Positions 6,400 through 57,544 of a stretch of DNA of 64,000 nt are shown here, in pieces. Numbering within the stretch: position 1 is the first letter of the stretch; every line of letters starts with the position of its first letter. Below the pieces are notes generated by a model. It was not told the DNA's origin. It saw only the letters and a program-made list of their open reading frames with translations, and made no database searches. A program made the translations under genes and the position numbers. The DNA is from Clostridia bacterium. GTDB taxonomy: Bacteria > Bacillota > Clostridia > UMGS1883. The stretch spans positions 1 through 64,000 of the forward strand of contig JBJDXJ010000009.1 of NCBI GenBank assembly GCA_051866635.1, given 5' to 3'.

Positions 6400-7302
6400 G
6401 TGACAGATGTGAAAAAGATGGCTTTTATATATAATCCCAATGCGGGAAAAGCTCTGATACGTGAGAATTTGTCTGAAATTCTGCATGTTTTTTCAGAAGG
6501 AGATTATGAGGTCACTGTAGTCCCCACAAAACATAAAAACCATTGCTGTGAGTATATATCTTCACGGGGCGAGCATTTTGACACAGTTACAGTGTCGGGC
6601 GGTGACGGCACGGTTAACGAAGCATTTAATGCACTTATGTGTATTGACGAACAAAAGAGGCCTGTTTTAGGATATATCCCCACAGGTACAACAAATGATT
6701 TTGCATCTTCAGTTTCAATACCAAAGGAGATAATTGAGGCGGCAAGGATTGTAAATGACGGTGAGGAGAAAAAAATCGATGTGGGCAAATTCAACGAAAA
6801 GTATTTTTCATATATTGCCGCATTCGGTGCATTTACCTCCGTTGCATACGATACACCTCAGCAAAGTAAAAACCTTTTAGGGTATGTGGCATATATTTTG
6901 GAGGGTATAAAAAGGCTTGGGGAAATAAAACCCTATAAAATACGGATTGAAACAGAAAATGAAACTTATGAGGATGAGTTCATATTTGGCATGGTCACAA
7001 ATGCACGTTCTGTAGGCGGTGTGAAGGTAAAGCACTTTGACATAAGTTTAAGTGACGGCGTTTTTGAAGGCATTTTTCTTAAAAAGATTACAAAGCCGGC
7101 TGACTTAAGTGCCATTGTTACGGACTTAAGAAAGAACATGGAAAAAAGCGATCATTATGTTTTCATTAAAGCACAAAAACTTAAAATAGAAAGCTATGAA
7201 AATATTGCATGGACACTGGACGGAGAATTCGGCGGTGAACACACAAGTGTGCAGATTGAAAATATACCACAGGCAATAAAAATAAAAGTTGCCCGTGAAT
7301 GA
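6400..7302 (+). CDS. YegS/BmrU-family diacylglycerol/lipid kinase
   Basis: IYNPNAGK, GGDGTVNE, IPTGTTNDF, TLDGE motifs. Confidence 0.9.
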   Translation: MTDVKKMAFIYNPNAGKALIRENLSEILHVFSEGDYEVTVVPTKHKNHCCEYISSRGEHFDTVTVSGGDGTVNEAFNALMCIDEQKRPVLGYIPTGTTNDFASSVSIPKEIIEAARIVNDGEEKKIDVGKFNEKYFSYIAAFGAFTSVAYDTPQQSKNLLGYVAYILEGIKRLGEIKPYKIRIETENETYEDEFIFGMVTNARSVGGVKVKHFDISLSDGVFEGIFLKKITKPADLSAIVTDLRKNMEKSDHYVFIKAQKLKIESYENIAWTLDGEFGGEHTSVQIENIPQAIKIKVARE

Positions 7303-7350
7303 AAAATATGGTATCATAAGTGTTACATATGAGAAAGGAAGATTTAGGAA

Positions 7351-9225
7351 ATGGCAAAGAAACAGTTTAAAACCGAATCCAAAAGAATATTGGATTTGAT
7401 GATTAATTCTATTTATACACATAAGGAAATTTTTCTTCGTGAAATTATTTCAAACGCAAGTGATGCAATCGACAAGCTTGTGTTCGTGTCCTTGACAGAT
7501 GGTGCAGAAGGCTTTGACAGAAGCAATTTTAAAATCAGGCTTGACATTGACAAAGAACACAGAACAATCACCGTAAGCGATAACGGTATCGGTATGACAA
7601 AGGAAGAGCTTGAAGAAAACCTCGGTACCATTGCAAAAAGCGGTTCTTTGAACTTTAAGTCCAATATATCAACAGAAGAAAAGGAAGAAAAGGACATTGA
7701 CATTATAGGTCAGTTCGGTGTAGGCTTTTACAGTGCCTTTATGGTAAGCGATTTAGTTACGGTTACAACGAAAAAGTACGATAGCGACCAAGCCTATGTA
7801 TGGGAAAGTACGGGTGTTGACGGCTACAGCATAAAAGAAGCGGTTAAGTACGACTCGGGTACTACAATTACCATGCATATTAAAGAAAATACCGAAGATG
7901 AAGTGTATGACGAATTTTTACAGAGCTACCGTATAAGAAGTATTGTGAAAAAGTATTCCGACTATGTTCGTTACCCCATTGTTATGCAGGTTGAAAAAAC
8001 GGGCGAAAACGACGAAAAATACTTTGAGGACGAAACACTTAACAGCATGGTTCCCCTTTGGCACAGAAGCAAAAGCGAAGTTTCCGACGAGGAATGTTAT
8101 AACTTCTATAAGGAAAACTTCTATGACTTTGAGGACCCCTGTAAGGTTATAAGGGTAAATGCCGAAGGTAGTCTTAATTATAAGGCAATGCTTTTCATCC
8201 CTTCAAAGGCACCTATGACATATTACACAAAGGAATATCAGAAGGGACTTTCTCTTTACACTTCTTCCGTTATGATTATGGAAAGATGCGAAGAGCTTCT
8301 GCCCGAGCATTTCAGGTTTGTAAAGGGTGTTGTTGATTCTGACAACCTTTCATTGAACATTTCCCGTGAAGTGCTTCAGCATGACCGTCAGCTTAAGCTT
8401 ATTGCAAATAATCTTGAAAAAAAGATTAAGTCCGAGCTTAAGAAAATGATGACTAATGAACGTGAAAAGTACGAAAACTTTTTCAAGGAATTCGGTCTTC
8501 AGTTAAAGTACGGCGTTGTATCAGACTACGGTGTACATAAGGATTTATTAAGTGACCTTTTGTTATATTATTCATCCTTCACGTCTTCACTTCAGAGCTT
8601 GGAGGAATATGTTTCTTCAATGCCCGAAGAACAAAAATACATATATTACGCACGTGGTGAAAGCATTTCAAAGATTGATGCACTTCCCCAGAGCGAAACA
8701 GTTAAGGAAAAGGGCTACGGCATACTTTACTTAACTGATGATGTGGACGAGTTTGTGGTAAATATTTTAGGTAAATACAATGACAAGGAATTTAAAAATA
8801 TCAATGATAAGGACCTTGGAATTGAAAGCGAAGACGAAATCAAGGAAACCGAAAAGAAGGAAGAAGAAAGCCGAGAGCTTCTTGATTTTGTAAAGGATTC
8901 ATTAAATGGTGAAGTTGAATTTGTACGTCTTTCCCATAAACTTAAGAGCCACCCTGTGTGCCTCTCCAGCGAAGGGGAAGTTACTCTTGAAATGGAAAAG
9001 TACTTTAAATCACTTCCCGGTGAGGAAGAAAAGATAAAGGCAAGAAGGGTTTTGGAATTAAACAGCGAGCATCACGCATTCCGGGCACTTAAAGATGCTT
9101 TTGAAAATGATAAAGAAAAGGCTAAAAAGCTCAGTAAGATACTTTATACCCAGGCACTTCTTATTGCGGATATGCCTGTGGAAAACCCTGTGGAATTTGC
9201 ACAATTGGTAGCAGAATTAATGTAA
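7351..9225 (+). CDS. htpG: Molecular chaperone HtpG (Hsp90)
   Basis: IFLREIISNASDAIDK, DNGIGMT, IGQFGVGFYSAF, LNISREVLQ. Confidence 0.97.
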   Translation: MAKKQFKTESKRILDLMINSIYTHKEIFLREIISNASDAIDKLVFVSLTDGAEGFDRSNFKIRLDIDKEHRTITVSDNGIGMTKEELEENLGTIAKSGSLNFKSNISTEEKEEKDIDIIGQFGVGFYSAFMVSDLVTVTTKKYDSDQAYVWESTGVDGYSIKEAVKYDSGTTITMHIKENTEDEVYDEFLQSYRIRSIVKKYSDYVRYPIVMQVEKTGENDEKYFEDETLNSMVPLWHRSKSEVSDEECYNFYKENFYDFEDPCKVIRVNAEGSLNYKAMLFIPSKAPMTYYTKEYQKGLSLYTSSVMIMERCEELLPEHFRFVKGVVDSDNLSLNISREVLQHDRQLKLIANNLEKKIKSELKKMMTNEREKYENFFKEFGLQLKYGVVSDYGVHKDLLSDLLLYYSSFTSSLQSLEEYVSSMPEEQKYIYYARGESISKIDALPQSETVKEKGYGILYLTDDVDEFVVNILGKYNDKEFKNINDKDLGIESEDEIKETEKKEEESRELLDFVKDSLNGEVEFVRLSHKLKSHPVCLSSEGEVTLEMEKYFKSLPGEEEKIKARRVLELNSEHHAFRALKDAFENDKEKAKKLSKILYTQALLIADMPVENPVEFAQLVAELM

Positions 9226-45623: not shown

Positions 45624-48600
45624 ATGAAAAAATTAACAGCACTTCTATTGGTTCTTGCCATGACTTTGACTTTTATGCCTGTTATCAGTCTTGGCACTGA
45701 AACTACCCAAACGGCAGAAAGTATTTCCGCTTTCAGCTGGAATTTTGAAACAAACGCACAGAACGGAACGCTCCCCACGGTGGTAAGCTGGGGCAATTAC
45801 AGAGCAGCATTTATGAGCTTTGAAATTCCCGAGGAAATACTTTCCTATAAGGATGAAACAGTAATCATAAATGCCACCTTAAGTGCCAATATGACCTTTA
45901 ATAACGGCAGAGTGTCAGGTCAGGCACCTTTTGTTACAATTGTTGAGGCGGACGGTGATGCAATTGCATCAGCTGATATGGGCGGCGGAAGCGATACAAC
46001 AAATACTCTTAAAGCCGCATGGGCAGAGGGTAAAGTTTTAGGTACAATTGACACCCTTAAAGAGGATGTTTCCACAGTTATGGACATTACCGAAATTGTA
46101 AAGGGCGGCAAAACAAAAATAGGCTTGTACCTTACATGCCGAAGTGAGGACGGATATTTAAAAACAAACGGTATTGTAAACTTTAACTCTCCCTCACTTG
46201 AAATAACAGTAACCAAAGTAGACGAGGATTATTACTTAAACAGTCTTAATATTCCTTACAATATATCTGAAGGTTACATTCTTCCAAAATCAATAGGCGG
46301 TATGGATATTGTATGGAGTGAAAGTGAAATTAAAGCTGAAGGCGAAACAGTTTATAAAAAGCTGACAGCTTCAATTAATAATAAGACAAAGGATTTTGAT
46401 GTGATGATTATGGGTGAAAACGACAAATTTATTGCGGCATACACCACGGAGGACTCTGTGGCGGTGGGCAACAGTATGCACCTTGCCATAAAAACAGAAA
46501 CGGGATGGGAGGAATTGAACTTTGGCATAGGCGTTCTTTTTGCAAGTGCTGACCTTTCCGATGAAACTTCCGCAGGCACAACAAAGGTGCTGGAAAAGCC
46601 GTATATTTACAGAAAAGATAACGGCAAAATCGGTGTTAGTGCAAGATGCATGAAATTGGACGGCACAAAGGACGAATTTTTAACCCTTTGGGAAACTGAC
46701 GATCTTGTACATTTTGAGACTGTAGGCACAGCTGAAAACGTGGACGGCTATGAAACAGTGGACCGTGTAGAAGTTGAAGGCATTAACGGAACTGTTAGCT
46801 CGGTGTTCCCTATAACTGACAGTGAATACGAATACCTTACAAAAAAGCTTATGGAAGTGAAAAACACTTCTGTTGAACCTATTATTTTAAGTACGGTTCC
46901 CGGCAAGGCTATTAGTAAATTGCCTTCTCTTACAGCTAATTATTCCGACACTTCAAAGGGAGAAATCCCTGTAAAATGGAATGAAGAAGAACTTAACGCA
47001 ATTGATTTTAATAAAACAGGTATTTATACTGTTACAGGTCAGGCTCAGGTAGCAGATTACCCAAGCCCTATGTTTTACGGCGAAGCAGACCCTGTTATTT
47101 ATAATTATAACGGCAAATACTATTTTATTGCCACAAATGAAACAGGCAGTCAGCTTGACTTATACATAAGATGTGCCGACACTATTGACGAGCTTGAAAC
47201 GGCAGAGGAAGTTTTGATTTTCAAGCATACATCATCAGGCGACCACAGCGGTTGTAACTGGGCACCTGAACTTCACGTTATAAACGGTGAATTGTACTGT
47301 CTTTTCGCTTCCAGTACAACAGGCAGTTGGAACGCTGTTCAGAGCCGTATTATGAAATGTACAGGGGACCCCATGAATATCAACGACTGGGAAGCACCTG
47401 TAATGGTTACAAGAAAAGACGGAAGCAGCCTCATTGACGAAGGTATCACCCTTGATATGACATATTTTGAATCAAAGGGTAAGCACTACTATGCTTGGGC
47501 AGAACGTCCCATAACTTCTCAAGGAAACGGCAACAGCTACATTGCAATTGCCGAGATGGATCCTTCTGACCCCTATAGGATAACAACAGACCCCGTCATT
47601 ATCCGTATCCCCGAATACGGCTGGGACAGACGCACAACAACAGTTGACGAAGGACCCCACGTTTTAAAGCATGAGGGTAAAATTTATATGTCATTCTCAG
47701 GCTCAGGCTGTGACAACACATATTGCTTAGGTTATCTTATTGCAGATGAAGATGCAGATTTGCTTAATAAAGACAGCTGGAGAGTTACAAACTATCCCGT
47801 ACTTGCAAGCGAGCATGTGGCAGGGGAGTACGGCCCCGGTCATAACGCCTTTGCAAAGGACGAATACGGCAGAGATATTATAATTGTACATATGAAGCCT
47901 AACGGCGGTACAAGAAGCGGTACCGTAAGAACAATTCACTACGGATTTGACGGTACACCTATTTTGTATATGACTGCCGACAGATATCTTAAGAGTGAAT
48001 ACAGAAATGTTACTGCAACAATCTATGTACGTGACGAAGATGTAACAGATGAAGAATTTGAGCTTGAAAGCATTGTAAATAATCTTACGATACATAATGC
48101 TGACAACATAAAAGAACATATAACACTTCCAACAGAAATTGATGGTGCAACCATTTTATGGTCAAGCGACAACTCTGCGGTAACAAATGATGGTGTTGTA
48201 ACAAGAGGAAATGAAGATGTAAGGGTTAATCTTACTGCCCTTGTTTCAAAAAACGGCTTAACAAAAGAAAAGGTATTTACAGTTACAATAAAGGCTAAGA
48301 GAGAAACTCATGACAAGGTTGGCTATATTTACGCATACTTCCGCGGAAGCGTTAATGGCGAAAAAGAAGTACAACAGATACATCTTGCAATAAGTGACGA
48401 CGGTTTAAACTGGCGTGATTTAAACGGTAACTTCCCTGTTATTGAGTCAAAGATGGGTACAAAGGGATTAAGAGACCCATACCTTATCCGTTCCTATGAA
48501 GGTGACAAGTTCTACCTTTTGGCAACTGATTTAGATGCAAACGGGGGAGATTGGACACAATACGGAGAAAACGGAAGTCGCTACCTTATGATTTGGGAAA

Positions 48601-51600
48601 GTGACGACCTTCTTAACTGGTCCGAGCAGAGAATGGTAAAAGTTTCTGACGAGAATATGGGTTGTACATGGGCACCTGAGGCAATATATGACGAAGAAAA
48701 CAAGAACTACCTTGTTTACTGGTCCTCCCACCGTGCAGATTTGGGAGGTAAGAAGGTTGTGCAGTGTGCCACAACACGTGACTTTGTAACATTTACCGAG
48801 CCTGAAATATTTGTTGGCGGTGACGGCGAAATCAGTGTTATCGACACAACAATGATAAAGGGCGACGACGGAAAATACTACCGCTTCACAAAGTATGCTG
48901 ACAAAGTAAGAGTATTTATGGAAGTGTCTGATTCTCCCACGGGACCTTTTACTGAGGTAAGTAGCAATGTTTATGATATTTATGGTGTTGAAGGACCTGA
49001 AATATTCAAATTGGAAGGCACAGATAAGTATTGCCTGATGCTAGACAGCTACACAGGCGATCTTGGTGCAATCGGATTTTTCCCCATGGTGACAGATGAT
49101 TTATCAAGTGGCAATTTTACACGCTTGACAGAAGGCTATAAAATGCCCACAGGTGCAAAGCACGGCGGCATACTCGCAATAACTGAGGATGAATACGCAT
49201 CTATCATGAAAAAGTGGGGACCACTTCCCGATGATGAAAATGTTATTGAATATAAATTTGACGGAAGCGATGAAAACCTTACACTTTACGGCAATGCAAA
49301 GTTAGAGGGTGGTACCCTTGTACTTGACGGAACAAGCTCTACATACGCAAACCTTGGAAAAGGTATTTTTGACAGACGTGAAAAATTCACTGTTTCAATG
49401 GACTTGTACAATGAAACAGAATCGGGATTTTTCTTTACCTTCTCCATAGGCGATACAACAAGCGACTATCTGTTCCTTCGTACAAGAAAGGAGCAGGTGC
49501 GTCTTGCACAGACAATATCCGGAAATACATACGAAGAAGCTGTCAATGTAGCGGTTTCAGATAATGTAAACAAATGGAGTAATTATACAATTGTAGGTGA
49601 CGGAGAAACATTAAAGCTTTATATTGACGGGGTTCTCTCAGGTGAAGCGAATACAACAAAAACATTGTATCACTTGGGCGAAAACCTTAGTGTAAACTTG
49701 GGTAAATCCACATTCTCAGCGGATAAATATTTTAAAGGTAAATTTGAAAATGTGAAGATTTTCAACCGTGCACTGACAAAAGCGGAGGTTATAGCATTAT
49801 TAGGTGATGCAGAAAAGCATCTTGAATACGATTACGACAATTTATCAATACTCAATCAGGACGAAATCACATGTGATTTGATGCTTCCTTCTGAAGGTGA
49901 AAGAAGCGGTTGTGAAATAACATGGAAATCCTCAGATACAAGCGTTATTACAGATGCCGGTATTGTAAATAGGTTTGACACAGACAAAAAGGTTACAATG
50001 ACGGGAACCTTAACTCTTGGTGAAACTGTACTTGAAAAGAAATTTGATGTAACAGTTCTTGCAAAAGAAGAAGATTATGCATATCTCTTTGCATATTTCA
50101 CAGGAAGTGCGGCAAGTCAAGAGAGGCTTTTCTACGGCGTTTCAAAGGACGGCTACAACTTCCGTGCGTTAAACGGCGGAAACAGCGTTTTAACAAGCGA
50201 CCTGGGCACAGGCTGTATCCGTGACCCCTTTATCATGAAGGGCGAGGACGGCTATTACTATATCATAGCAACGGATATGAAGTCCTCCTTAGGTTGGTCC
50301 AGTAACTACGCAACAGTTGTGTTTAAAACTCCCGACCTTATAAACATTGTTGATAAAGAATGGATTAATTACCGTAATTTTAAAGCAACTGCAAACTGTA
50401 CACGTGCGTGGGCACCCCAGGCTATATGGTGCCCCGAAAAAGAGGCATATATGGTATATCTCACAATGGAAATGCCCGACGACGATTACCCAACAGTAAT
50501 GTTCCGTCATTACGCAACTGATTTGTGCGACGCAAGTACATATACAGAACCCACTCTTATGCTAAATCGCCCTGAAAACATAAACTCTGCAATTGACGGT
50601 GATATTATTTACGATAAGTTCCACGATGAATATATTATGTTCTACAACGGTAAACAGCTTGCGGTAAGTAAAACCTTAAGCGGAGAATGGACACATGCAA
50701 AAACGAAGTATTCCGACGGTCAGCTCCCCATGGTTACATCGACCGGAGCCTCCATGGCTGTTGAGGGCAGCAATATATGGCAGATTATAGGTCGTGATAA
50801 GTGGGTAATTGCCGCAGACGGCACAGCGTTCAACGGCGGCTGTTACGCACTTGTTGAAACAGAGGACTTTGAAAACTATACTCAGCTTTGGGCAAGTCGC
50901 GGCGATTACTCCTTCGACTTTACACCACGCCACGGCTATGTAATACCCATAAGCGAAAGAGAGTTAAATAATCTGTTTACGGCTTACGGAACCGTGGAAT
51001 TTCCCGAAGATAAAGCATTTGACCTTAATATCGACCTTTCACAAAAAGGCGTTGATATAAACGAGGATATGTACGGAATTTTCTACGAGGATATTAACTA
51101 TGGTGCAGACGGCGGATTGTACAGCGAAGTTATTGAAAACCGTTCCTTTGAAGCGGCACATTGTAACCCTGATAAGGGAGAAGCTTATACAAAGATTCCT
51201 TCATCAGGCTGGACAGTTACAAACGCTACGGCAGAATATCTCTCAGAAAACCCCTTGAACGAAAATAACACGACATATGTCCGTCTTACAACGCAAAATG
51301 GTTCCACCTTAAGTAACGAATGTTACTCGGGCTTTAAAGCAAGTGACGGTGAAATTTTTGACGTAAGTTTCTTTGCTCGTGGAAACTACACGGGAAAAAT
51401 CACAGTTTCAATTGTAGAGGGCGAAAATGTTTTAGGAAGTAAGGAATTTACTATTAACAGCACTGAATTTAAGAAGTATTCAGGCACATTACAGGTAAAG
51501 GGCGAATCTGCTACCGCTACAGTCAAACTTAGCTTTGATAAAGAAGGCACAATTGACATGGATATGATTTCCGTAATTACACAAAACACCTTTAACGGTC

Positions 51601-53870
51601 GTAATAACGGATTAAGACGTGATATTGTTCAAGCCCTTTACGATTTACATCCTAAGTTTATGCGTTTCCCCGGTGGCTGTGTTGTGGAAGGTTACTACCT
51701 TGACAACCGCTACAAATGGAAGGAGTCTATCGGTCCTGTAGAAGAAAGAAAGGAAAACTGGAACCGTTGGCAGACAGGCAGTAACGCTTACGACTACTGC
51801 CAGACTTTAGGTCTTGGTTTTTACGAATATTTCCTCCTTTGCGAAGACATAGGTGCAAAGCCACTTCCCGTAGTAAGCGTGGGCATTGGTTGCCAGTATC
51901 AGTCAGGTGAAGTATCAAGCTGGGACGACTTGTACAATATCTATATTCAGGATGCAATTGACCTTATTGAATTTGCAAACGGCGACCCCAAAACAAATAA
52001 GTGGGCGGCTATCCGTGCCGAAATGGGTCATGAAGAACCCTTTAACCTTGAATACTTAGGAATAGGTAACGAACAGTGGTATACAGACGCTAACCGCTTC
52101 TTTGAGCGTTATGAAGCATTTGAAGAAGAAATCCACAAACTGTATCCCGATATTAAATTAATTTCCACATCAGGTCCTTCAGCAGACGGAACGCATTACG
52201 ATAACGCCTGGAACTGGCTTAAATCCCATAACGGTGAAGAAAACTTCACATATGCGGTAGATGAACATTATTACCGCACACCCGAATGGTTCCTTGATAA
52301 TGTTAACCGATACGACTCCTACGACAGAGAAGGTTTTGGCGTGTTTGCAGGTGAATATGCGGCAAACGGCACTTATGGCAACACTCTTTATTCAGCCATT
52401 GCCGAAGCGGCATATATGACAGGTTTAGAAAAAAATGCCGACATTGTAAAACTTGCTTCCTATGCACCGCTTCTGGCAAAGGAAGGCTTTACACAGTGGT
52501 CCCCTAATCTTATATGGTTTGACAATACTACAGTTTATGGTTCACCTGACTATTATGTACAGAAAATGTACTCCGAAAATAACGGTTCGTATACTGTGAA
52601 AAATGAAGTTAGTGTCCATGGAGAGGAAAAGGTGTATAAAGCAGGTGTAGGTACATGGTCAACTGCCGCACAGTTTAAGGATATTACAGTTACAGACGAC
52701 AAAACAAATGAAACTACCAAGCTTGTACTTGGGGAAACAACCCTTGGTACATGGACAGAAGACGAGGGCGTTTACTCCCAGACAAGCACAAGTGCAAACG
52801 GTGCATTTAATATTGCACCTGTTACTAAAAACGGATATACACTTAGCCTTAAGGCTATGAAAACAGGCGGTAATGAAGGCTTCCTTATTCCCATAAAGTA
52901 TGTTGACAATAATAACTACATTTTCTGGAATATTGCAGGCTGGGGCAACACACAAAGTGCTGTTCAGAAAGTAGACAACGGAACAAAAACAAATATTACA
53001 TCATATGTACCTATAGTTGTTGAAACAAATACATGGTATGATGTTTCCGTAAAGGTTACGGAAGATACTATGTACTGCTACTTAAACGGAGAGCTTATTC
53101 AGTCGGCATTTATTAATAAAACGGAAGGCCCCGTTTACAGCAGTGTTTCAGTTGACGAAAAATCAGGGGATATTATCGTAAAGCTTGTAAATTCTTCCGA
53201 AACAAAGGCAGATGTTAACGTAAAAATTGAAAATGCAGAATATATTGCACCCCTCTGCGACGAATATGTTCTTACAGGCAATGCAAAGGGTGACAGAAAC
53301 TCACTTGCAAATCCTGAAAATGTGCGGGAGGTTAAGGGAATATTTACAGGTGCCTCCGATAACTTTACATACGAAATGACAGGCTTAAGCTTTGTAGTTT
53401 TAAGGCTTCATACAACAGAAAGTTATGTTACAGAAGTTACCTCTGTTACTGTAAATAACCCTGAAAACCTTCCCGAAAATGTATTGGTTACACTTTCTGA
53501 CGGTTCAAAGGAAGAAAGGAAGGTAACATGGCAGAAGGGCAGTGAGGGTGCATACTGTTACGGCGGTTCATATACCGTTGAAGGTGATGTTGAACAAAGT
53601 AATGTTAAAGCTATTGCCACACTTAACATTCCCACACACGGTATGGTAGAATTTACAGGTGATAATACTGCACATGTTTACACAAGGGAAAATACTACTG
53701 TACGAATTGCGGTATACAATGATGAGGGAGCACTCATAAGCATAGAAACAAAGAAAATTGACGGCGAAGAGGACATTGTATTTACAGCACCTGAAAGCGG
53801 CAAGGTAAAGATTATGCTTTGGAGTGAAAATATTACCCCCATGGAGAAAACTTTTGAAAAAGTATATTAA
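45624..53870 (+). CDS. Giant secreted multi-catalytic glycoside hydrolase (three GH43/clan GH-F-like modules, LamG, Ig-like domains, GH51 alpha-L-arabinofuranosidase)
   Basis: Signal peptide. Three propeller motif sets: ADP...WAPE...DEGP, RDP...WAPE...IDT...EGPE and RDP...WAPQ...IDG...EG. GH51 motifs FYEDINYGADGGLY, RFPGGC, GIGNEQW, GEYAA, SYAPLL. Confidence 0.82.
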   Translation: MKKLTALLLVLAMTLTFMPVISLGTETTQTAESISAFSWNFETNAQNGTLPTVVSWGNYRAAFMSFEIPEEILSYKDETVIINATLSANMTFNNGRVSGQAPFVTIVEADGDAIASADMGGGSDTTNTLKAAWAEGKVLGTIDTLKEDVSTVMDITEIVKGGKTKIGLYLTCRSEDGYLKTNGIVNFNSPSLEITVTKVDEDYYLNSLNIPYNISEGYILPKSIGGMDIVWSESEIKAEGETVYKKLTASINNKTKDFDVMIMGENDKFIAAYTTEDSVAVGNSMHLAIKTETGWEELNFGIGVLFASADLSDETSAGTTKVLEKPYIYRKDNGKIGVSARCMKLDGTKDEFLTLWETDDLVHFETVGTAENVDGYETVDRVEVEGINGTVSSVFPITDSEYEYLTKKLMEVKNTSVEPIILSTVPGKAISKLPSLTANYSDTSKGEIPVKWNEEELNAIDFNKTGIYTVTGQAQVADYPSPMFYGEADPVIYNYNGKYYFIATNETGSQLDLYIRCADTIDELETAEEVLIFKHTSSGDHSGCNWAPELHVINGELYCLFASSTTGSWNAVQSRIMKCTGDPMNINDWEAPVMVTRKDGSSLIDEGITLDMTYFESKGKHYYAWAERPITSQGNGNSYIAIAEMDPSDPYRITTDPVIIRIPEYGWDRRTTTVDEGPHVLKHEGKIYMSFSGSGCDNTYCLGYLIADEDADLLNKDSWRVTNYPVLASEHVAGEYGPGHNAFAKDEYGRDIIIVHMKPNGGTRSGTVRTIHYGFDGTPILYMTADRYLKSEYRNVTATIYVRDEDVTDEEFELESIVNNLTIHNADNIKEHITLPTEIDGATILWSSDNSAVTNDGVVTRGNEDVRVNLTALVSKNGLTKEKVFTVTIKAKRETHDKVGYIYAYFRGSVNGEKEVQQIHLAISDDGLNWRDLNGNFPVIESKMGTKGLRDPYLIRSYEGDKFYLLATDLDANGGDWTQYGENGSRYLMIWESDDLLNWSEQRMVKVSDENMGCTWAPEAIYDEENKNYLVYWSSHRADLGGKKVVQCATTRDFVTFTEPEIFVGGDGEISVIDTTMIKGDDGKYYRFTKYADKVRVFMEVSDSPTGPFTEVSSNVYDIYGVEGPEIFKLEGTDKYCLMLDSYTGDLGAIGFFPMVTDDLSSGNFTRLTEGYKMPTGAKHGGILAITEDEYASIMKKWGPLPDDENVIEYKFDGSDENLTLYGNAKLEGGTLVLDGTSSTYANLGKGIFDRREKFTVSMDLYNETESGFFFTFSIGDTTSDYLFLRTRKEQVRLAQTISGNTYEEAVNVAVSDNVNKWSNYTIVGDGETLKLYIDGVLSGEANTTKTLYHLGENLSVNLGKSTFSADKYFKGKFENVKIFNRALTKAEVIALLGDAEKHLEYDYDNLSILNQDEITCDLMLPSEGERSGCEITWKSSDTSVITDAGIVNRFDTDKKVTMTGTLTLGETVLEKKFDVTVLAKEEDYAYLFAYFTGSAASQERLFYGVSKDGYNFRALNGGNSVLTSDLGTGCIRDPFIMKGEDGYYYIIATDMKSSLGWSSNYATVVFKTPDLINIVDKEWINYRNFKATANCTRAWAPQAIWCPEKEAYMVYLTMEMPDDDYPTVMFRHYATDLCDASTYTEPTLMLNRPENINSAIDGDIIYDKFHDEYIMFYNGKQLAVSKTLSGEWTHAKTKYSDGQLPMVTSTGASMAVEGSNIWQIIGRDKWVIAADGTAFNGGCYALVETEDFENYTQLWASRGDYSFDFTPRHGYVIPISERELNNLFTAYGTVEFPEDKAFDLNIDLSQKGVDINEDMYGIFYEDINYGADGGLYSEVIENRSFEAAHCNPDKGEAYTKIPSSGWTVTNATAEYLSENPLNENNTTYVRLTTQNGSTLSNECYSGFKASDGEIFDVSFFARGNYTGKITVSIVEGENVLGSKEFTINSTEFKKYSGTLQVKGESATATVKLSFDKEGTIDMDMISVITQNTFNGRNNGLRRDIVQALYDLHPKFMRFPGGCVVEGYYLDNRYKWKESIGPVEERKENWNRWQTGSNAYDYCQTLGLGFYEYFLLCEDIGAKPLPVVSVGIGCQYQSGEVSSWDDLYNIYIQDAIDLIEFANGDPKTNKWAAIRAEMGHEEPFNLEYLGIGNEQWYTDANRFFERYEAFEEEIHKLYPDIKLISTSGPSADGTHYDNAWNWLKSHNGEENFTYAVDEHYYRTPEWFLDNVNRYDSYDREGFGVFAGEYAANGTYGNTLYSAIAEAAYMTGLEKNADIVKLASYAPLLAKEGFTQWSPNLIWFDNTTVYGSPDYYVQKMYSENNGSYTVKNEVSVHGEEKVYKAGVGTWSTAAQFKDITVTDDKTNETTKLVLGETTLGTWTEDEGVYSQTSTSANGAFNIAPVTKNGYTLSLKAMKTGGNEGFLIPIKYVDNNNYIFWNIAGWGNTQSAVQKVDNGTKTNITSYVPIVVETNTWYDVSVKVTEDTMYCYLNGELIQSAFINKTEGPVYSSVSVDEKSGDIIVKLVNSSETKADVNVKIENAEYIAPLCDEYVLTGNAKGDRNSLANPENVREVKGIFTGASDNFTYEMTGLSFVVLRLHTTESYVTEVTSVTVNNPENLPENVLVTLSDGSKEERKVTWQKGSEGAYCYGGSYTVEGDVEQSNVKAIATLNIPTHGMVEFTGDNTAHVYTRENTTVRIAVYNDEGALISIETKKIDGEEDIVFTAPESGKVKIMLWSENITPMEKTFEKVY

Positions 53871-53871
53871 G

Positions 53872-53914
53872 AAAATGAAAAGAGACCTTCCAAAAGAGGG
53901 TCTCTTTTCATTTC
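53872..53914 (+). terminator. Terminator of the giant GH gene
   Basis: AAATGAAAAGAGACC...GGTCTCTTTTCATTT. Confidence 0.8.
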
Positions 53915-53970
53915 GGTATATTCATATTTGAAAACACTTATTTACTCAATTTATGAGAAGTCATAAAAAT

Positions 53971-54011
53971 GTCTTGATTATTATAGCGCACTGCGCTATA
54001 ATAATCAAGAC
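53971..54011. promoter_or_regulatory. Perfect 41-bp palindrome forming a SigA-type promoter on both strands, containing two GCGC sites
   Basis: GTCTTGATTATTATAGCGCA-C-TGCGCTATAATAATCAAGAC. TTGATT (53974-53979), 17 bp, TATAAT (53997-54002). GCGC at 53986-53989 and 53993-53996. Confidence 0.8.
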
Positions 54012-54033
54012 GAAAACCTTTGGAGGAACTATT

Positions 54034-55014
54034 ATGATTAATATAGAAAACAAGTATTTTGATGGAATGACATTTATTGATTTATTTGCTGGATTGGGTG
54101 GGTTTAGATTGGCATTAGAATCATTAGGTGCAAAATGTGTTTATTCAAATGAGTGGAATATTCCTGTACAGGAAGTGTATTATGATAACTTTGGTGATAT
54201 TCCCGAGGGCGATATAACAAAGGTCGATGAAAAAACGATACCTAATCATGATATTTTATGTGCGGGGTTTCCGTGTCAAGCCTTCTCTATAAGTGGAAAG
54301 CAGAGAGGTTTTGAAGATAGTAGAGGTACTTTGTTTTTTGATGTTGCCCGTATTGTTAAAGAAAAAAAGCCAAAAATTGTATTTATGGAAAATGTCAAGA
54401 ATTTTGCCACACATGATGGTGGAAAAACATTAGAGGTTGTAAAAGCCACAATGGAAGAATTAGGCTATGTCTTCAAACAAAAAGTGTTAAATTCAGTTGA
54501 TTATGGAGTTCCGCAAAAAAGGGAAAGAATATACATGGTATGTTTTAGAAAAGATGTGAAAATTAATAATTTTTCTTTTCCGAAGGCAATTAAACTTACT
54601 AAGCATGTTGAGGATTTTTTATTAGAGGATACATCTTTAACTGAACATCTGTTTGTAGATAGACCTGATACTTATTACAGTGGTATAGAGGACAATGTCT
54701 ATAGTGAAAAATCAATTAGGTTAGGAACTGTAAATAAAGGTGGACAGGGAGAAAGAATATATAGTACTAAAGGTATAGCTATAACATTTTCAGCATACGG
54801 TGGTGGTGTTTTTGCAAAAACAGGCGGTTATTTGGTGGATGGTAGACCCAGAAGATTACATCCAAGAGAATGTGCCAGATTAATGGGATATCCCGATACT
54901 TACAAAATTAGTAAAAAAGTAAATCAAGCGTATCAGCAGTTTGGAAATTCTGTAGTTGTAGATGTCCTTCAATACATTGGAATAGAAGTGGGAAAAGCCC
55001 TAAAGGATGATTGA
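54034..55014 (+). CDS. C5-cytosine DNA methyltransferase, M.HhaI-like (predicted GCGC)
   Basis: FIDLFAGLGGFRLALES, AGFPCQAFSISGKQ, MENV, PQKRER, QFGNSV. TRD KGGQGERIYST...SAYGGGVFAKTGGY matches my recollection of M.HhaI. Start ATG 54034 with GGAGG. Confidence 0.9.
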   Translation: MINIENKYFDGMTFIDLFAGLGGFRLALESLGAKCVYSNEWNIPVQEVYYDNFGDIPEGDITKVDEKTIPNHDILCAGFPCQAFSISGKQRGFEDSRGTLFFDVARIVKEKKPKIVFMENVKNFATHDGGKTLEVVKATMEELGYVFKQKVLNSVDYGVPQKRERIYMVCFRKDVKINNFSFPKAIKLTKHVEDFLLEDTSLTEHLFVDRPDTYYSGIEDNVYSEKSIRLGTVNKGGQGERIYSTKGIAITFSAYGGGVFAKTGGYLVDGRPRRLHPRECARLMGYPDTYKISKKVNQAYQQFGNSVVVDVLQYIGIEVGKALKDD

Positions 55015-55309
55015 AATGAATGAAGTGGAATTTAGAAATTGGTTGTTAAAAAATAGTGGTTCTAAAAAAGTTCAAAGTGATATTGTTTCCAGAATTAAAA
55101 AAATAGAACGAGAAATAGAAAACTGCGATATTGATGAACAATATCGCAGGGATAGATGTGAATACTTAATGTCATTATTTATAAACATGGGAATCAACAA
55201 TGAGATGGATAAATATCCTAATGCCAATTTTCCTATTGGAGCGTATTATATGAGCACATTTCGATATGCAATAAAACAATATGTACAATTTTGTGATGAA
55301 TGTTATTAA
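55007..55309 (+). CDS. Hypothetical 100-aa helical protein coupled to the methyltransferase
   Basis: Overlaps the MTase 3' end and the endonuclease stop. No family recognised with confidence. Confidence 0.6.
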   Translation: MIEMNEVEFRNWLLKNSGSKKVQSDIVSRIKKIEREIENCDIDEQYRRDRCEYLMSLFINMGINNEMDKYPNANFPIGAYYMSTFRYAIKQYVQFCDECY

Positions 55310-56100
55310 TCATTATATAGTTCTGCTTCGAATTTTCTTAAATCGTTAATATCTTGCGACTTAATCAATTTGATAGAAAATATAACATTCATTTTATATG
55401 TGTTGGACAACTTTCTGACTTCATATTCATTTTGTGTTCGTTTGGAGAGAAGAAATGTAAAATTACCTAAACCAAATTTGTCTGTTATTAAGGCATCTGT
55501 TATCTTGACATAGAGTTTTTTGCCTTCGTGAGCATACGTAGCAGATGGATACAAACGGCTAATTGTGTTTTTGACAATAGGCATATCCTTTATTGCCGGC
55601 ACTCCTGAACCACTTTTCTTAATGCGATAAGTGGCATTAATTCGAAAATATTGATTAAATTTGTGTATGGGCAGTATAACATAATCTCGACCACGGCTAA
55701 TAACATATTTTACATTTTTACTTATGTAGTGACCAATAATCCAATCGGCGAAGACGTTGGCATCAATGTCTAATGATTGTCCGGCAGTTCCTGCATTATT
55801 GAAACGATGAAAATCGTTGTTCATATACTGAATCATAATTGCGGTCATTTCGTTTGGTTTACTATGGTTTTTTGGGGAAAACACAAATATTTGTGATTTT
55901 TCATCGGGATTAAGGACAAATTGTCCGGATTGAGCGGTAGAATCTTTAACTTCAATATAAAAATCTGTTATCCCGTTTTTGAGAACTGCGATATCAGATT
56001 TCGTAGAATCCATACCTCCTTCTAAATGGAATATTGCGTTAGGGTATGTTCGTTTTAAATATTCATAACAATCATTTTCAAATTTCTCGCCCGGTTTCAT
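55306..56100 (-). CDS. Type II restriction endonuclease, R.HhaI-like (PD-(D/E)XK)
   Basis: FE..C..YL, DST.SDI, FYIEVK...Q.GQFVL, YRIKKSGS and LSNT...NVIFSI match my recollection of R.HhaI. Confidence 0.75.
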   Translation of the reverse strand: MKPGEKFENDCYEYLKRTYPNAIFHLEGGMDSTKSDIAVLKNGITDFYIEVKDSTAQSGQFVLNPDEKSQIFVFSPKNHSKPNEMTAIMIQYMNNDFHRFNNAGTAGQSLDIDANVFADWIIGHYISKNVKYVISRGRDYVILPIHKFNQYFRINATYRIKKSGSGVPAIKDMPIVKNTISRLYPSATYAHEGKKLYVKITDALITDKFGLGNFTFLLSKRTQNEYEVRKLSNTYKMNVIFSIKLIKSQDINDLRKFEAELYND

Positions 56101-57077
56101 TGGTTACCTCCTGTGATTTTTAAAAAATCAATAATACTTTTTCCTAAAGCTTTGATTACGGTTACTGTCATTGCATTTCCTGCTTGCATTAATAAATGTC
56201 TATCCGTAACTTTATTCTTAACTTTGTCAGCATATTCTTTGGGAAATCCTTGCAACAGCAATGCTTCATATCCTGTTAATTGGTGTATAATACCATCTCT
56301 AACATAGAGTACACCGTCTCTTTGAGCTCGTAAAGTGGGACACTTATCTTTATATATACGCAAGTCGTTCATGCGTGTATCAATTATTCTTCCCTCCATA
56401 GATTTTATATCATCTATTGTGTATTTTCCCATATTAACAGGATTTTTTAAATAATAGTTCAATATATTCAAGCGACTATCATCTGCAGTATGATTGTCAA
56501 TTAAAAAATCTGATAACAATGGGGGTTCAATTTCTTTAGGCCACTCAAATTTAGAATAATCTAATTTGAGTGATTTTTTAAATCCAATAAAATACACTCG
56601 TTGTCGCATTTGAGGCACACCGTAGTTAAGACTTGTCAGTACTCGATAAGAGGTGTCATATCCAACGGAGTTTAATTCCTCTAAAATTGTTTTTATTGTT
56701 TTACCGCCATCGTGAGTTACCAAGCCTTTAACATTCTCTAATATGAAACACATAGGTTGTGCTTCCTTAAGTATTCTTGACAATTGAAAAATAATTTGAC
56801 CTCTATCATCTGAAAACCCTTCCTGCCTTCCGATAACCGAAAAAGTTTGACAAGGGAAGCCTGCTATAAGTAGATCAAATGCAGGAATTCTATCCGCTGT
56901 AATTCTTTTTAGATTTCCATAGTTCAGTTCGTTCTCAGTATTGTGCATGAGACGATAAGTTGTGTCGGCTAATCTACTTGTTTCTGAACGCCCAACGCAT
57001 TTAAGACCAGCTTTTTCTAAACCTAATCTACCTCCGCCGATTCCTGAACAGAAATCGAAAAAAGTGTTAATTGTCAT
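56097..57077 (-). CDS. Second C5-cytosine DNA methyltransferase, M.Hpy99III-like (predicted GCGC)
   Basis: DFCSGIGGGRLGLE, GFPCQ, LENVKG, QMRQR, QAGNAM. TRD DTRMNDLRIY...PTLR resembles the H. pylori GCGC MTase as I recall it. Start ATG 57077 with GAGG. Confidence 0.82.
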   Translation of the reverse strand: MTINTFFDFCSGIGGGRLGLEKAGLKCVGRSETSRLADTTYRLMHNTENELNYGNLKRITADRIPAFDLLIAGFPCQTFSVIGRQEGFSDDRGQIIFQLSRILKEAQPMCFILENVKGLVTHDGGKTIKTILEELNSVGYDTSYRVLTSLNYGVPQMRQRVYFIGFKKSLKLDYSKFEWPKEIEPPLLSDFLIDNHTADDSRLNILNYYLKNPVNMGKYTIDDIKSMEGRIIDTRMNDLRIYKDKCPTLRAQRDGVLYVRDGIIHQLTGYEALLLQGFPKEYADKVKNKVTDRHLLMQAGNAMTVTVIKALGKSIIDFLKITGGNQ

Positions 57078-57294
57078 TATTTTTATCCTCATTTATAAAA
57101 AGTTTATATGTGTCAATTTCAAGTGCATCTGCTATCCTTTGTATGTTCTCCAGTGAAATACTTCGTCTACAACACTCTACTGCACTAATATATGTACGGT
57201 GTAACTCACATTTTTCAGCAAATGCTTCTTGAGAAAGCCCTATTTGTGTGCGATATTTCTTTACATTTTGTGCAAACACTTTTAAAATATCCAT
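57067..57294 (-). CDS. XRE-family HTH controller (C) protein
   Basis: NVKKYR...GLSQEAFAEKCELHRTYISAVE...SLENIQRIADAL. First gene of the C-M-R operon. Confidence 0.85.
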   Translation of the reverse strand: MDILKVFAQNVKKYRTQIGLSQEAFAEKCELHRTYISAVECCRRSISLENIQRIADALEIDTYKLFINEDKNNDN

Positions 57295-57317
57295 AGATAC
57301 ATCACCTCACTCTAATA

Positions 57318-57359
57318 ATTATACAGTTTTGAACACAAAAAGTCTACATACAATAAGTA
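57318..57359 (-). promoter_or_regulatory. C-box pair overlapping a SigA promoter
   Basis: Minus strand TACTTATTGTA-TGTA-GACTTTTTGTG (11-4-11 layout of PvuII-type C-boxes). TAGACT, 17 bp, TATAAT. Confidence 0.65.
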
Positions 57360-57544
57360 TCTTTGGTAAATGGTTAATATTGAGTTACACACTAATATAT
57401 GTCATAATACCGGTATATGGATGGTGTGGTAGATAGGTGACGCATGTCTTCTTTTCATTTCGGTATATTTCTACTTAAAAACGGGACTTTTGTTTTATTG
57501 TGTAAGAAATACCATGTTGATATAATTTTGTTGAGGTGTTCAGC

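What the first reader, a model, noticed from the sequence alone, without database searches (positions are those of the whole stretch)
53903..57469. GCGC restriction-modification cassette with two unrelated methyltransferases for one palindromic site, under two different control circuits
Seen: two convergent operons, M1 + ORF100 on the plus strand and C-M2-R on the minus strand. Recalled: M1 looks like M.HhaI including its target-recognition domain, R looks like R.HhaI (GCG^C), and M2 looks like H. pylori M.Hpy99III, a different C5-MTase lineage that also methylates GCGC. A palindromic Type IIP site normally needs only one MTase; twin MTases are typical of asymmetric Type IIS sites. Inference: a dual-protection architecture in which M1 is controlled at its palindromic GCGC-containing promoter, giving early protection, while M2 is co-transcribed with the nuclease under C-protein delay. 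The two MTases might also differ in substrate (hemimethylated or single-stranded DNA, or which C is modified).
Basis: partly seen in the sequence, partly recalled or inferred. Interest (0 to 1): 0.82.

Follow-up and report, generated by a model that had tools for sequence, protein, structure and literature searches.

The report
GCGC restriction cassette with two methylases
This is a mobile bacterial defence cassette of the well-known HhaI (GCGC-cutting) type that carries two related protective methylases plus a small uncharacterised protein that probably controls one of them through the cassette's own target sites.

Summary
The five-gene layout is real. M1 (54034-55014, +) is a close M.HhaI orthologue, target-recognition domain included. 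R (55306-56100, -) is an R.HhaI homologue that keeps all six published recognition residues. C is a controller-type HTH protein with a conserved dyad block upstream. M2 is not "unrelated" to M1. They are 33% identical, and M2's best solved relative is M.HhaI itself. Its likeness to M.Hpy99III and its target could not be tested.

The M1+M2 layout is not unique: 22 of 43 related loci have it, and 4 of 43 have all five genes. Six literature searches found no description of it.

The most interesting part is ORF100 and the M1 promoter. The only two GCGC sites in 64 kb (about 109 expected) lie in a palindrome between the -35 and -10 boxes. This GCGC-N3-GCGC element is present in 21 of 24 loci with intact ORF100 and in 0 of 13 without it. 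ORF100 belongs to no known family, and weak leads point to an integrase-SAM-like DNA-binding fold.

Best reading: ORF100 is an operator-binding, probably methylation-sensitive, regulator of M1, while C, M2 and R form a classical controlled operon. The regulatory logic resembles AhdI. Verdict: a new variant of a known kind, of moderate interest.

The parts
53971..54011 (.). Perfect 20+1+20 palindrome. Its core, TATAGCGC-ACT-GCGCTATA (53982-54000), is the proposed operator. It holds the only two GCGC sites of the window (53986 and 53993).
   Evidence: The core GCGC-N3-GCGC recurs at the M1 promoter of 21 related loci and nowhere else in 408,985 nt of loci.
53974..54002 (+). M1 promoter: TTGATT, 17-nt spacer, TATAAT (10 of 12 consensus matches). 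Both GCGC sites lie in the spacer, and the second abuts the -10 box.
   Evidence: The same TTGACA...GCGC-N3-GCGC-TATAAT build is seen in the group A loci. A consensus match only; no transcript data.
54034..55014 (+). M1: C5-cytosine methyltransferase, an orthologue of M.HhaI (makes Gm5CGC). 326 aa.
   Evidence: (3.6e-154; TRD loops aligned with M.HhaI, Q237 and R240 equivalents kept). Motifs I, IV, VI, VIII and X are present in 38 of 38 family members.
55016..55309 (+). ORF100: a 97-aa protein of no described family, translationally linked to M1. Proposed to bind the operator and regulate M1. An alternative start is at 55007.
   Evidence: No Pfam or NCBIfam match. 370 and 338 homologues, all unnamed. 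Co-occurs with the operator. Integrase-SAM-like/FliZ lead.
55123..55149 (-). Hairpin (11-bp stem) followed by TTTTCTATTT on the strand that encodes R, inside the ORF100 coding region. A possible terminator of the C-M2-R transcript.
   Evidence: Kept in L001, L004, L006, L007 (two wobble changes), L010, L014, L017 and L026. L002 keeps the stem without the T-run. Absent in the more distant loci. Function inferred.
55306..56100 (-). R: restriction endonuclease of the HhaI family (expected GCG^C). 264 aa.
   Evidence: (6uke, 1.1e-41, residues 6-249). It has SD-X13-EVK where HhaI has SD-X11-EAK. Q57, Q60, R159, K161, K162 and S163 match HhaI Q53, Q56, R155, K157, K158 and S159, and are invariant in 23 sequences.
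56097..57077 (-). M2: a second C5-cytosine methyltransferase, 326 aa, with a 4-nt overlap onto R. It is HhaI-related, with a shorter and diverged TRD. Its target is unproven.
   Evidence: PCQ, ENV and GN motifs are present in 19 of 19 family members.
57067..57294 (-). C: controller-type HTH protein, 75 aa. Its 3' end overlaps the start of M2.
   Evidence: (PADLOC Control_protein 5.6e-23).
57318..57361 (-). C-operon promoter (TAGACT, 17-nt spacer, TATAAT, 57346-57318) and a conserved dyad block (57361-57330): ATAC-N5-GTAT and AGAC-N5-GTGT. Read here as C-boxes.
   Evidence: The block GATACTT.TTGTATGTAGACT..T.GT.T.CA is invariant in the window, L001, L004 and L014. The likeness to published C-boxes is recalled, not tested.

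Best explanation
This is a horizontally mobile Type IIP restriction-modification cassette of the HhaI kind. It is expected to cut GCG^C, with protection by Gm5CGC. It is built from two convergent operons.

Operon 1 (+ strand). A near-consensus promoter drives M1, an M.HhaI orthologue, and the small protein ORF100. Between the -35 and -10 boxes lies a palindromic operator, TATAGCGC-N3-GCGCTATA. It is made of two copies of the system's own target.

I propose that ORF100 is a DNA-binding autoregulator that acts at this operator. I also propose that its binding, or the promoter's strength, depends on whether the two GCGC sites are methylated. M1 would then be made in a burst on unmethylated DNA in a new host and be throttled once the DNA is methylated.

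Operon 2 (- strand). A promoter with C-box-like dyads drives C, M2 and R as one translationally coupled message. C delays and limits R. M2 is a second, HhaI-related C5-methylase.

Shown: gene identities, layout, operator conservation and its association with ORF100.
Inferred: ORF100 binding, the direction of the methylation effect, the target of M2, and the division of labour.
For: Identity of the system:
- M1 vs M.HhaI, 3.6e-154, with the TRD aligned.
- R vs R.HhaI, 1.1e-41, with all six recognition residues and the catalytic S, D, E and K kept.
- GCGC is the most depleted tetranucleotide in the window, observed/expected 0.03. GCG alone is 0.82, and GCGA, GCGG and GCGT are not depleted.

Operator:
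- The only two GCGC sites lie in the promoter spacer.
- GCGC-N3-GCGC sits at the M1 promoter in 21 related loci and nowhere else in 408,985 nt.
- It has two placements, in the spacer or just after the -10 box. Both suit a repressor.

Link to ORF100:
- The double site is present in 21 of 24 loci with intact ORF100 and a readable promoter. It is present in 0 of 13 loci where ORF100 is absent or truncated. Raw Fisher p = 1.6e-7, not corrected for shared ancestry.
- M1 is present in all 13 of those loci, so M1 alone does not keep the sites.
- Four of those loci (L005, L013, L018, L020) have a recognisable promoter in which one or both sites have changed, mostly to GTGC or GCAC.
- ORF100 changes state at least 8 times on the M1 tree. 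In 4 independent pairs on well-supported branches, the operator went the same way in a mean of 3.8 pairs and never the other way.

ORF100 as a DNA binder:
- Median pI of the family is 8.8.
- The domain is N-terminal in longer homologues. One of these (P0478) matches an HNH nuclease domain and one (P0479) a GmrSD/NsnA domain.
- Two Atlas queries give FliZ/Phage_int_SAM families as the nearest named clusters, score 0.90. FliZ is a repressor that binds at the extended -10 through such a domain (PMC3367168 passages).

C circuit: Control_protein 5.6e-23 and a conserved dyad block.

M2-R coupling:
- A 4-nt overlap in the window.
- Gaps of -59 to +14 nt in the 20 loci with an M2 ORF next to a separate R ORF. 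L006 (remnant) and L025 are excluded.
- An in-frame M2-R read-through in L026.
- M2 is found more often where ORF100 is present: 19 of 22 loci against 8 of 19 (raw p = 0.007).

Precedent for the logic: AhdI (PMC2275141 abstract).
Against:
- ORF100 matches no Pfam or NCBIfam family. A profile search of PDB sequences gave only a coiled-coil match to Rpt3 (1.4e-3). Atlas scores of 0.90 arise by chance 4-10 times in 100.
- The phylogenetically controlled test has only 4 pairs (p = 0.125). Three loci with intact ORF100 lack the double site (L017, L035, L019).
- The window's own ORF100 is acidic (pI 5.2) and has Ala at a nearly invariant Lys. The window's proximal C-box dyad is degenerate.
- The direction of the methylation effect is open. 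AhdI is attenuated by methylation. In H. pylori, GCGC at the extended -10 needs methylation for full activity (PMC8706393).
- The target of M2 is unproven. The position matching Q237 varies, and Loop 2 is 5 residues shorter (PMC2790894).
- No locus shows M2 protecting alone. L025 ends in an IS66 element and the contig end.
Confidence: 0.55

Rival explanations
1. The operator works without ORF100. Methylation of the two GCGC sites alone changes promoter strength (as in AhdI or CfrBI), or M1 binds its own sites. ORF100 then has another role, for example modulating R or M1, or sensing modified DNA.
For: - Published systems are regulated by methylation of their own site in the M promoter, with no extra protein (AhdI abstract; CfrBI preprint, listing only).
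- ORF100 has no recognised DNA-binding family.
- The related domain sits on nucleases, which would also fit a sensor role.
- The window's copy is acidic.
Against: M1 is present in all 13 loci that lack intact ORF100. None of them keeps the double GCGC site, and four show changed sites. If M1 or methylation alone used the sites, they should persist there. ORF100 and the operator are lost together at least 4 times, and up to 8 times.
Confidence: 0.22
2. M2 does not duplicate M1. It has a shorter or different target, for example GCG or another GC-rich motif. It then adds a second kind of protection or an unrelated epigenetic mark.
For: - The M2 TRD is diverged. The position of M.HhaI Q237 varies, and the stretch after the TL dipeptide is 5 residues shorter.
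- An engineered 5-residue truncation of that loop made M.HhaI GCG-specific (PMC2790894 passages).
- The M2 family evolves faster, with median identity 56% against 74% for M1.
Against: - M2 is always placed directly before an HhaI-type R, and is fused in frame to it in L026.
- The R240 equivalent and the TL dipeptide are kept.
- GCG as such is hardly depleted in the window (0.82), so there is no sign of heavy GCG methylation and decay. This is weak evidence.
Confidence: 0.25
3. The twin methylases are an evolutionary leftover. Two GCGC modules were joined by recombination, and one methylase is redundant and on its way out. There is no division of labour.
For: - R with M1 alone occurs in 19 of 43 loci.
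- L006 keeps only an M2 remnant of 42-51 aa.
- M2, ORF100 and C come and go: 12, 8 and several changes on the tree.
Against: - M1+M2 is kept in 22 of 43 loci, spread over Clostridia, Selenomonadaceae, the Peptoniphilus group, a Bacteroidales MAG and a gammaproteobacterial MAG.
- M2 has diverged down to 48-54% identity, yet PCQ, ENV and GN are kept in 19 of 19 members.
- That is long persistence under selection.
Confidence: 0.15

Closest known systems
HhaI restriction-modification system of Haemophilus haemolyticus (R.HhaI, M.HhaI)
   Same: M1 aligns with M.HhaI over its whole length, including both recognition loops. R aligns with R.HhaI over residues 5-240, with the catalytic and recognition residues kept.
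   Different: HhaI is described as a simple two-gene system (PMC7026639 passages). Here there are also a second methylase, a controller protein and ORF100. R is diverged from R.HhaI (identity not computed; E = 1.1e-41) and has SD-X13-EVK instead of SD-X11-EAK.
AhdI R-M system regulation (Bogdanova et al. 2008, PMC2275141; abstract read)
   Same: It has two convergent transcription units. A strong M promoter carries the system's own site at the -10 box and is tuned by its methylation. A weak CR promoter is run by a C protein at two sites.
   Different: AhdI has one methylase (M plus S subunits) and no ORF100-like gene. It has a single site, not a palindromic double site. Here a methylase also rides in the C-R operon.
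CfrBI R-M system (methylation of one site in the shared promoter region; preprint 10.64898/2025.12.04.692298, search listing only)
   Same: The system's own target site lies in the promoter region and acts as a methylation-dependent switch.
   Different: CfrBI has divergent genes, one site, no accessory protein and one methylase.
DpnII-type systems with two methylases for palindromic GATC (PMC3573125 and PMC3812788, search listings only)
   Same: Two methylases serve one palindromic Type IIP site.
   Different: The DpnII methylases are adenine enzymes of different classes, one acting on single strands (recalled). Here both are C5 enzymes of one subfamily, and nothing points to a single-strand role.
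M.Hpy99III (JHP1050) of H. pylori, Gm5CGC
   Same: It modifies the same motif and the same cytosine as M.HhaI (PMC8706393 abstract). GCGC next to the -10 box affects promoter strength there.
   Different: Whether M2 belongs to this lineage was not testable here. M.Hpy99III is mostly an orphan enzyme.
FliZ, a repressor with a phage-integrase core-binding (SAM-like) domain (PMC3367168 passages)
   Same: It is the nearest named cluster to two ORF100 homologues in the Atlas (0.90). FliZ binds at the extended -10 region, which is where the group A operator lies.
   Different: There is no significant sequence match. ORF100 is about half the size and sits in an R-M operon.

Membership tests
HhaI-type Type IIP R-M system | Endonuclease homologous to R.HhaI over its three domains | tested here: met
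   6uke_X, E = 1.1e-41, query 6-249 against chain 5-240 of 258.
HhaI-type Type IIP R-M system | Catalytic motif SD-X11-EAK (PMC7026639) | tested here: met
   alignment: S, D, E and K are all present. The spacing is 13 instead of 11, and the motif reads EVK instead of EAK.
HhaI-type Type IIP R-M system | Recognition residues Q53, Q56, R155, K157, K158, S159 | tested here: met
   they match Q57, Q60, R159, K161, K162 and S163, which are invariant in 23 aligned sequences.
HhaI-type Type IIP R-M system | Adjacent C5-methylase with the M.HhaI target-recognition loops | tested here: met
   M1 has GGQGERIY...ITFSAYGGGVFAKTGGYL, with the Q237 and R240 equivalents kept.
HhaI-type Type IIP R-M system | Cuts GCG^C and is blocked by Gm5CGC | not testable with these tools
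   Indirect only: GCGC observed/expected is 0.03 in the window.
C-protein-controlled R-M systems | Small HTH controller gene upstream of R and in the same orientation | tested here: met
   75 aa, Control_protein PDLC03665 5.6e-23.
C-protein-controlled R-M systems | C-box dyads at the promoter of the C gene | tested here: inconclusive
   a conserved block with two dyads in the window and 3 loci. The match to published C-box consensus is recalled. The window's proximal dyad is degenerate.
R-M systems with a methylation-tuned M promoter (AhdI, CfrBI) | The system's own target site lies inside the core promoter of the methylase gene | tested here: met
   two GCGC sites in the 17-nt spacer, conserved in 21 loci.
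R-M systems with a methylation-tuned M promoter (AhdI, CfrBI) | Methylation of that site changes promoter activity | not testable with these tools
   Needs reporter assays.
Twin-methylase Type IIP systems (DpnII type) | Both methylases modify the same palindromic site | tested here: inconclusive
   M1: yes, by homology. M2: inferred from its coupling to R, but its TRD is diverged.
Twin-methylase Type IIP systems (DpnII type) | One methylase acts on single-stranded incoming DNA | not testable with these tools
   No sequence feature examined bears on this.
M.Hpy99III lineage (claimed for M2) | Closer in sequence to JHP1050 than to M.HhaI, TRD included | not tested
   No JHP1050 sequence was within reach. 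The best 120 hits are all above 70% identical, with generic names. The best solved relative is M.HhaI.
Phage-integrase SAM-like / FliZ DNA-binding domain (considered for ORF100) | Significant match to a Phage_int_SAM Pfam model | tested here: not met
   no match in 25 members. Two long homologues match Phage_int_SAM_5 at about 1e-3, below the cut-off.
Phage-integrase SAM-like / FliZ DNA-binding domain (considered for ORF100) | Four-helix core-binding fold | not testable with these tools
The Atlas feature scores of 0.90 are a lead only.

The most novel reading that the evidence does not exclude
ORF100 founds a new class of R-M controller. It would be a stand-alone, integrase-SAM-like DNA-binding domain that reads the 5-methylcytosine state of a double-target-site operator (TATAGCGC-N3-GCGCTATA). 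It would switch the 'establishment' methylase M1 off once the genome is protected, handing maintenance to the R-coupled M2. The same domain would serve as the DNA- or modification-sensing head of HNH and GmrSD-type defence nucleases.
Probability: 0.3. Interest if true: 0.7.

Novelty: new variant of a known kind. Interest (0 to 1): 0.5.

Why it matters
Restriction-modification systems must protect a new host's DNA before the nuclease appears. Three solutions are well studied: C proteins, methylases that bind their own promoters, and methylation of a promoter site.

This cassette, and about half of its relatives in gut and other bacteria, combines a C-type circuit with a second, undescribed one. 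That second circuit consists of a small protein of an unnamed family (hundreds of homologues in each of two searches) tied to an operator made of two target sites.

If ORF100 reads methylation, it would be a simple bacterial 5mC-sensitive transcription factor. It would also explain why a palindromic site is served by two methylases, one for establishment and one for maintenance.

Practically, the enzymes are likely HhaI isoschizomers and GCGC methylases from anaerobes. Such systems are barriers to genetic work in gut Clostridia.

Tried and rejected
No fold, dimer or partner test was made.
2. ORF100 against known families. Pfam, NCBIfam and PADLOC gave nothing usable (LeoB at 0.0024 was dismissed). 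A PDB profile search gave only the Rpt3 coiled coil (1.4e-3), rejected as a composition effect.
3. M2 = M.Hpy99III. No H. pylori sequence was available. One search returned only close, generically named relatives. The three H. pylori papers give no sequence comparison.
4. An 'M2 alone protects' case. L025 has M2+R without M1, but an IS66 transposase follows R and the contig ends there. Rejected as evidence. L009 has R with no methylase nearby.
5. Plasmid collection. One hit, an unannotated R homologue in a Clostridium estertheticum plasmid. Uninformative.
6. The palindrome as a terminator. flags it on the - strand. Rejected, because relatives conserve the GCGC core within the promoter, not the long stem.
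7. The long M1 ORF from 53953. Rejected, because it would start upstream of its own promoter and homology begins at 54034.
8. Shared flanks between the window and the loci: none.
9. Other defence genes in the window: none among 35 long ORFs.
10. Literature. Searches found no description of a GCGC system with two C5-methylases or of ORF100. Subscription journals and REBASE were not searchable.
11. Not searched: the metagenome contigs and viral contigs collections, which were closed. No supplementary files were opened.

Full report
**What is there**

Between a very long ORF that ends at 53870 and an ORF that starts at 57536 lie five genes in two convergent units.

- On the + strand: M1 and ORF100.
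- On the - strand: C, M2 and R.

I place the true starts as follows.

- M1 starts at 54034. It has a GGAGGA ribosome-binding site, and homology to M.HhaI begins there.
- ORF100 starts at 55016, because 24 homologues begin MNEVEF or similar.
- M2 starts at 57077, because an identical 326-aa database protein begins there.

M2 and R overlap by 4 nt, and C overlaps M2. The stop codons of ORF100 and R overlap tail to tail. The cassette has about 0.33 G+C against about 0.40 around it. It shares no flanking genes with any of 43 related loci. I therefore read it as horizontally mobile.

**Identities**

M1:
- It matches M.HhaI at E = 3.6e-154 over residues 1-322 of 327.
- Both target-recognition loops align with M.HhaI, and the Q237 and R240 equivalents are kept.

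R:
- It matches the solved R.HhaI (6uke) at 1.1e-41.
- The HhaI paper names Q53, Q56, R155, K157, K158 and S159 as the base-reading residues and SD-X11-EAK as the active site (PMC7026639, passages).
- R has Q57, Q60, R159, K161, K162 and S163. These are invariant in 23 aligned family members. Its motif reads SD-X13-EVK.
- I therefore expect an HhaI isoschizomer.

C:
- It hits the PADLOC controller-protein model at 5.6e-23 and Pfam HTH_3 at 1.1e-11.
- Upstream of C, a block of about 30 nt with two dyads (ATAC-N5-GTAT and AGAC-N5-GTAT/GTGT) is nearly invariant in the window, L001, L004 and L014, while the surrounding DNA is not.
- It overlaps a TAGACT-17 nt-TATAAT promoter.
- That it looks like published C-boxes is my recollection, not a test.

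**M2 is not an unrelated lineage**

- M2 is 33% identical to M1 (E = 7e-54).
- Its best solved relative is M.HhaI (3.1e-42), ahead of M.HaeIII (7.9e-33).
- Both methylases have the same best PADLOC model, PDLC03272. M1 scores 1.2e-113. M2 scores 1.1e-98, and its next-best model only 2.6e-53.
- Across families, M1 and M2 are 29-35% identical.
- In the recognition domain, M2 keeps the Arg that matches M.HhaI R240 (the RIY motif) and the TL dipeptide. The Q237 position varies, and the stretch after TL (Loop 2) is 5 residues shorter.
- That matters, because an engineered 5-residue truncation of Loop 2 changed M.HhaI from GCGC to GCG specificity (PMC2790894, passages).
- So the target of M2 is probably GCGC or something that covers it, but this is inference.
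I had no H. pylori sequence, and the 120 best of 4238 hits are all more than 70% identical and generically named.
- M.Hpy99III makes Gm5CGC, the same base as M.HhaI (PMC8706393 abstract).

**The layout is widespread**

A profile of R found 43 loci in the species-representative genome collection. I annotated them with the five window proteins.

| Feature | Loci (of 43) |
|---|---|
| M1 within reach of R | 41 (all but L009 and L025) |
| M2 directly before R | 23 |
| M1 and M2 together | 22 |
| All five genes | 4 (L001, L004, L014, L026) |
| R with M1 but no M2 | 19 |

- L006 keeps only an M2 remnant.
- The M1+M2 loci come from Oscillospiraceae and other Clostridia, Selenomonadaceae, Peptoniphilus, Tissierella, Ezakiella and Lagierella. 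They also include a Bacteroidales MAG and a gammaproteobacterial MAG (titles as given).
- In L024 and L036, a different small HTH (HTH_26) sits in the C position.
- In L003, L016 and L043, a C homologue stands directly before R with no M2.
- No clean case of M2 protecting alone exists. In L025, an IS66 transposase follows R and the contig ends.
- The PCQ, ENV and GN motifs are present in 19 of 19 M2 and 38 of 38 M1 sequences.

**The operator and ORF100**

The window holds 2 GCGC sites, where 108.6 +/- 9.9 are expected from dinucleotide shuffles.

- GCGC is the most depleted tetranucleotide (0.03).
- GCG is at 0.82, and GCGA, GCGG and GCGT are not depleted.
- Both sites (53986 and 53993) lie in a perfect 20+1+20 palindrome. 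They sit in the 17-nt spacer of TTGATT...TATAAT, and the second site abuts the -10 box.

The motif GCGC-N3-GCGC, usually as TATAGCGC-N3-GCGCTATA(AT), stands at the M1 promoter in 21 loci. It occurs nowhere else in their 408,985 nt. It has two placements.

- In the window's closer relatives (group A, including L001-L027 and L040), it fills the spacer.
- In L032, L034, L036, L038, L039 and L041 (group B), it lies just after the -10 box and before the ribosome-binding site.

Both placements are typical of a repressor site.

Its presence follows ORF100.

| Loci with readable promoter | Double GCGC site | Notes |
|---|---|---|
| ORF100 intact (24) | 21 | L017 and L035 keep one site; L019 lacks the whole promoter segment that its close relative L021 has |
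| ORF100 absent or truncated (13) | 0 | M1 is present in all 13; in L005, L013, L018 and L020 one or both sites have changed, mostly to GTGC or GCAC |

- The changes seen are mostly of the kind that deamination of 5-methylcytosine gives. That reading is mine.
- The raw Fisher p is 1.6e-7, but the loci are related to one another.
- On an M1 tree, ORF100 changes state at least 8 times. In the 4 independent pairs on well-supported branches, the operator went the same way in a mean of 3.8 pairs and never the other way. That gives p = 0.125, too few pairs for significance.
- I conclude that the sites are kept by selection only where ORF100 is present. The simplest reason is that ORF100 acts at them.

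**What ORF100 is**

- It is a 97-aa protein with no Pfam, NCBIfam or convincing PDB match.
- It has 370 homologues in the word-index search and 338 cluster representatives in the exhaustive search. Nearly all are 90-105 aa, with no informative name.
- The family's median pI is 8.8. The window's copy is 5.2 and has Ala at a nearly invariant Lys.
- Ten of the 150 listed representatives are longer (230-504 aa), with the domain at the N-terminus. One continues into an HNH nuclease domain, and one into a GmrSD_N/NsnA domain. So the domain is reused as the head of defence nucleases.
- Two Atlas queries with stored homologues both give the FliZ family (Phage_int_SAM_1) as the nearest named cluster, at 0.90, followed by other Phage_int_SAM families. 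Two long homologues match Phage_int_SAM_5 below the cut-off.
- FliZ is a repressor whose integrase-like domain binds at the extended -10 region, and such domains bind inverted repeats (PMC3367168, passages).
- All of this is a lead, not a demonstration. The fold could not be predicted.

**How it most likely works**

1. On entry into an unmethylated host, the near-consensus M1 promoter fires. M1 and ORF100 are made together.
2. C has to build up before the C-M2-R operon is fully on.
3. Once the genome, including the operator, is methylated, ORF100 and/or the methyl groups reset the M1 promoter.
4. From then on, each R message also encodes M2, which keeps protection in step with the nuclease.

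M2 is found more often where ORF100 is present: 19 of 22 loci against 8 of 19 (raw p = 0.007). That fits a handover from M1 to M2.

The two operons meet tail to tail with no plus-strand terminator found. M1-ORF100 transcription may therefore also run antisense into R. A hairpin with a T-run for the R strand lies inside ORF100 and is kept in the close relatives.

The sign of the methylation effect is open. AhdI's M promoter is attenuated by methylation (PMC2275141 abstract). GCGC at the extended -10 of H. pylori promoters needs methylation for full activity (PMC8706393, passages). In group A, the methylated C would sit at -15, next to G -14.

**Comparison and novelty**

- The enzymes are members of known families: M.HhaI, R.HhaI and C proteins.
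- The two-loop regulation resembles AhdI.
- Two methylases on a palindromic site are known from DpnII (search listing).
- The Type II review reserves twin methylases for asymmetric sites (PMC4081073, passages).
- New here are the pairing of two HhaI-related C5-methylases around an HhaI-type nuclease, the double-site operator, and ORF100.
- Six literature searches found no description of these. REBASE, subscription journals and the closed metagenome and viral collections were not searched.
- I rate it a new variant of a known kind, with interest 0.5.

Noticed in passing
window 1-64000: Besides GCGC (0.03), several other palindromes are strongly depleted: CTAG 0.07-0.08, GATC 0.10, GGCC 0.17, CGCG 0.21-0.22 and CCGG 0.37-0.38 (observed/expected). 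This suggests exposure to other restriction systems that are not encoded in this window. None of 35 long ORFs outside the cassette hit a defence model, apart from generic ATPase/GTPase matches.
   Followed up: partly
L026:298-2148: M2 reads in frame through a 26-residue linker into R, giving one 616-aa ORF. This is a possible natural methylase-nuclease fusion, or a read-through with separate initiation of R.
   Followed up: partly
L022, L023, L024: The cassettes are nearly the same, with identical M1 proteins. Yet the MAGs are labelled Bacteroidales, Peptostreptococcus and Clostridiaceae. This means either very recent transfer or binning errors.
   Followed up: no
L019 vs L021, upstream of M1: These are close relatives (M1 branch lengths 0.04 and 0.004). 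L021 has a roughly 60-nt promoter and operator segment that L019 lacks, although L019 keeps ORF100 and M2.
   Followed up: no
P0478, P0479 and eight other long homologues: The ORF100 domain forms the N-terminus of longer proteins. One has an HNH nuclease domain and one a GmrSD_N/NsnA domain. Six have no family match, and two match Phage_int_SAM_5 only below the cut-off. This hints at a DNA- or modification-sensing module shared by defence nucleases.
   Followed up: partly
window 55016-55309 and 57330-57345: The window's own copy looks slightly off-consensus. ORF100 has Ala at a nearly invariant Lys and a pI of 5.2, against a family median of 8.8. The promoter-proximal dyad before C reads AGAC-TTTTT-GTGT, where three relatives have AGAC-T(T/G)ATA-GT(A/G)T.
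   Followed up: partly
L027 (1541-2328) and L043 (6001-6779): R is split into two frames in these two loci, so the nuclease is probably inactivated, while M1 is intact. L013 has a shortened R of 242 aa.
   Followed up: no
L025:2546-4114 and 6888-8516: A GmrSD-type modification-dependent nuclease gene lies next to M2, and an IS66 transposase lies directly after R.
   Followed up: partly
window 45624-53870: One 2748-aa ORF ends 100 nt before the M1 promoter. It is followed by a GC-rich hairpin with a T-run (about 53880-53910), which marks the left border of the cassette. The protein was not analysed.
   Followed up: no
L024:2947-4776 and L036:2973-4790: A roughly 605-aa AAA_23 ATPase gene and a small HTH_26 gene precede M2. 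This may be another defence gene travelling with the cassette.
   Followed up: partly
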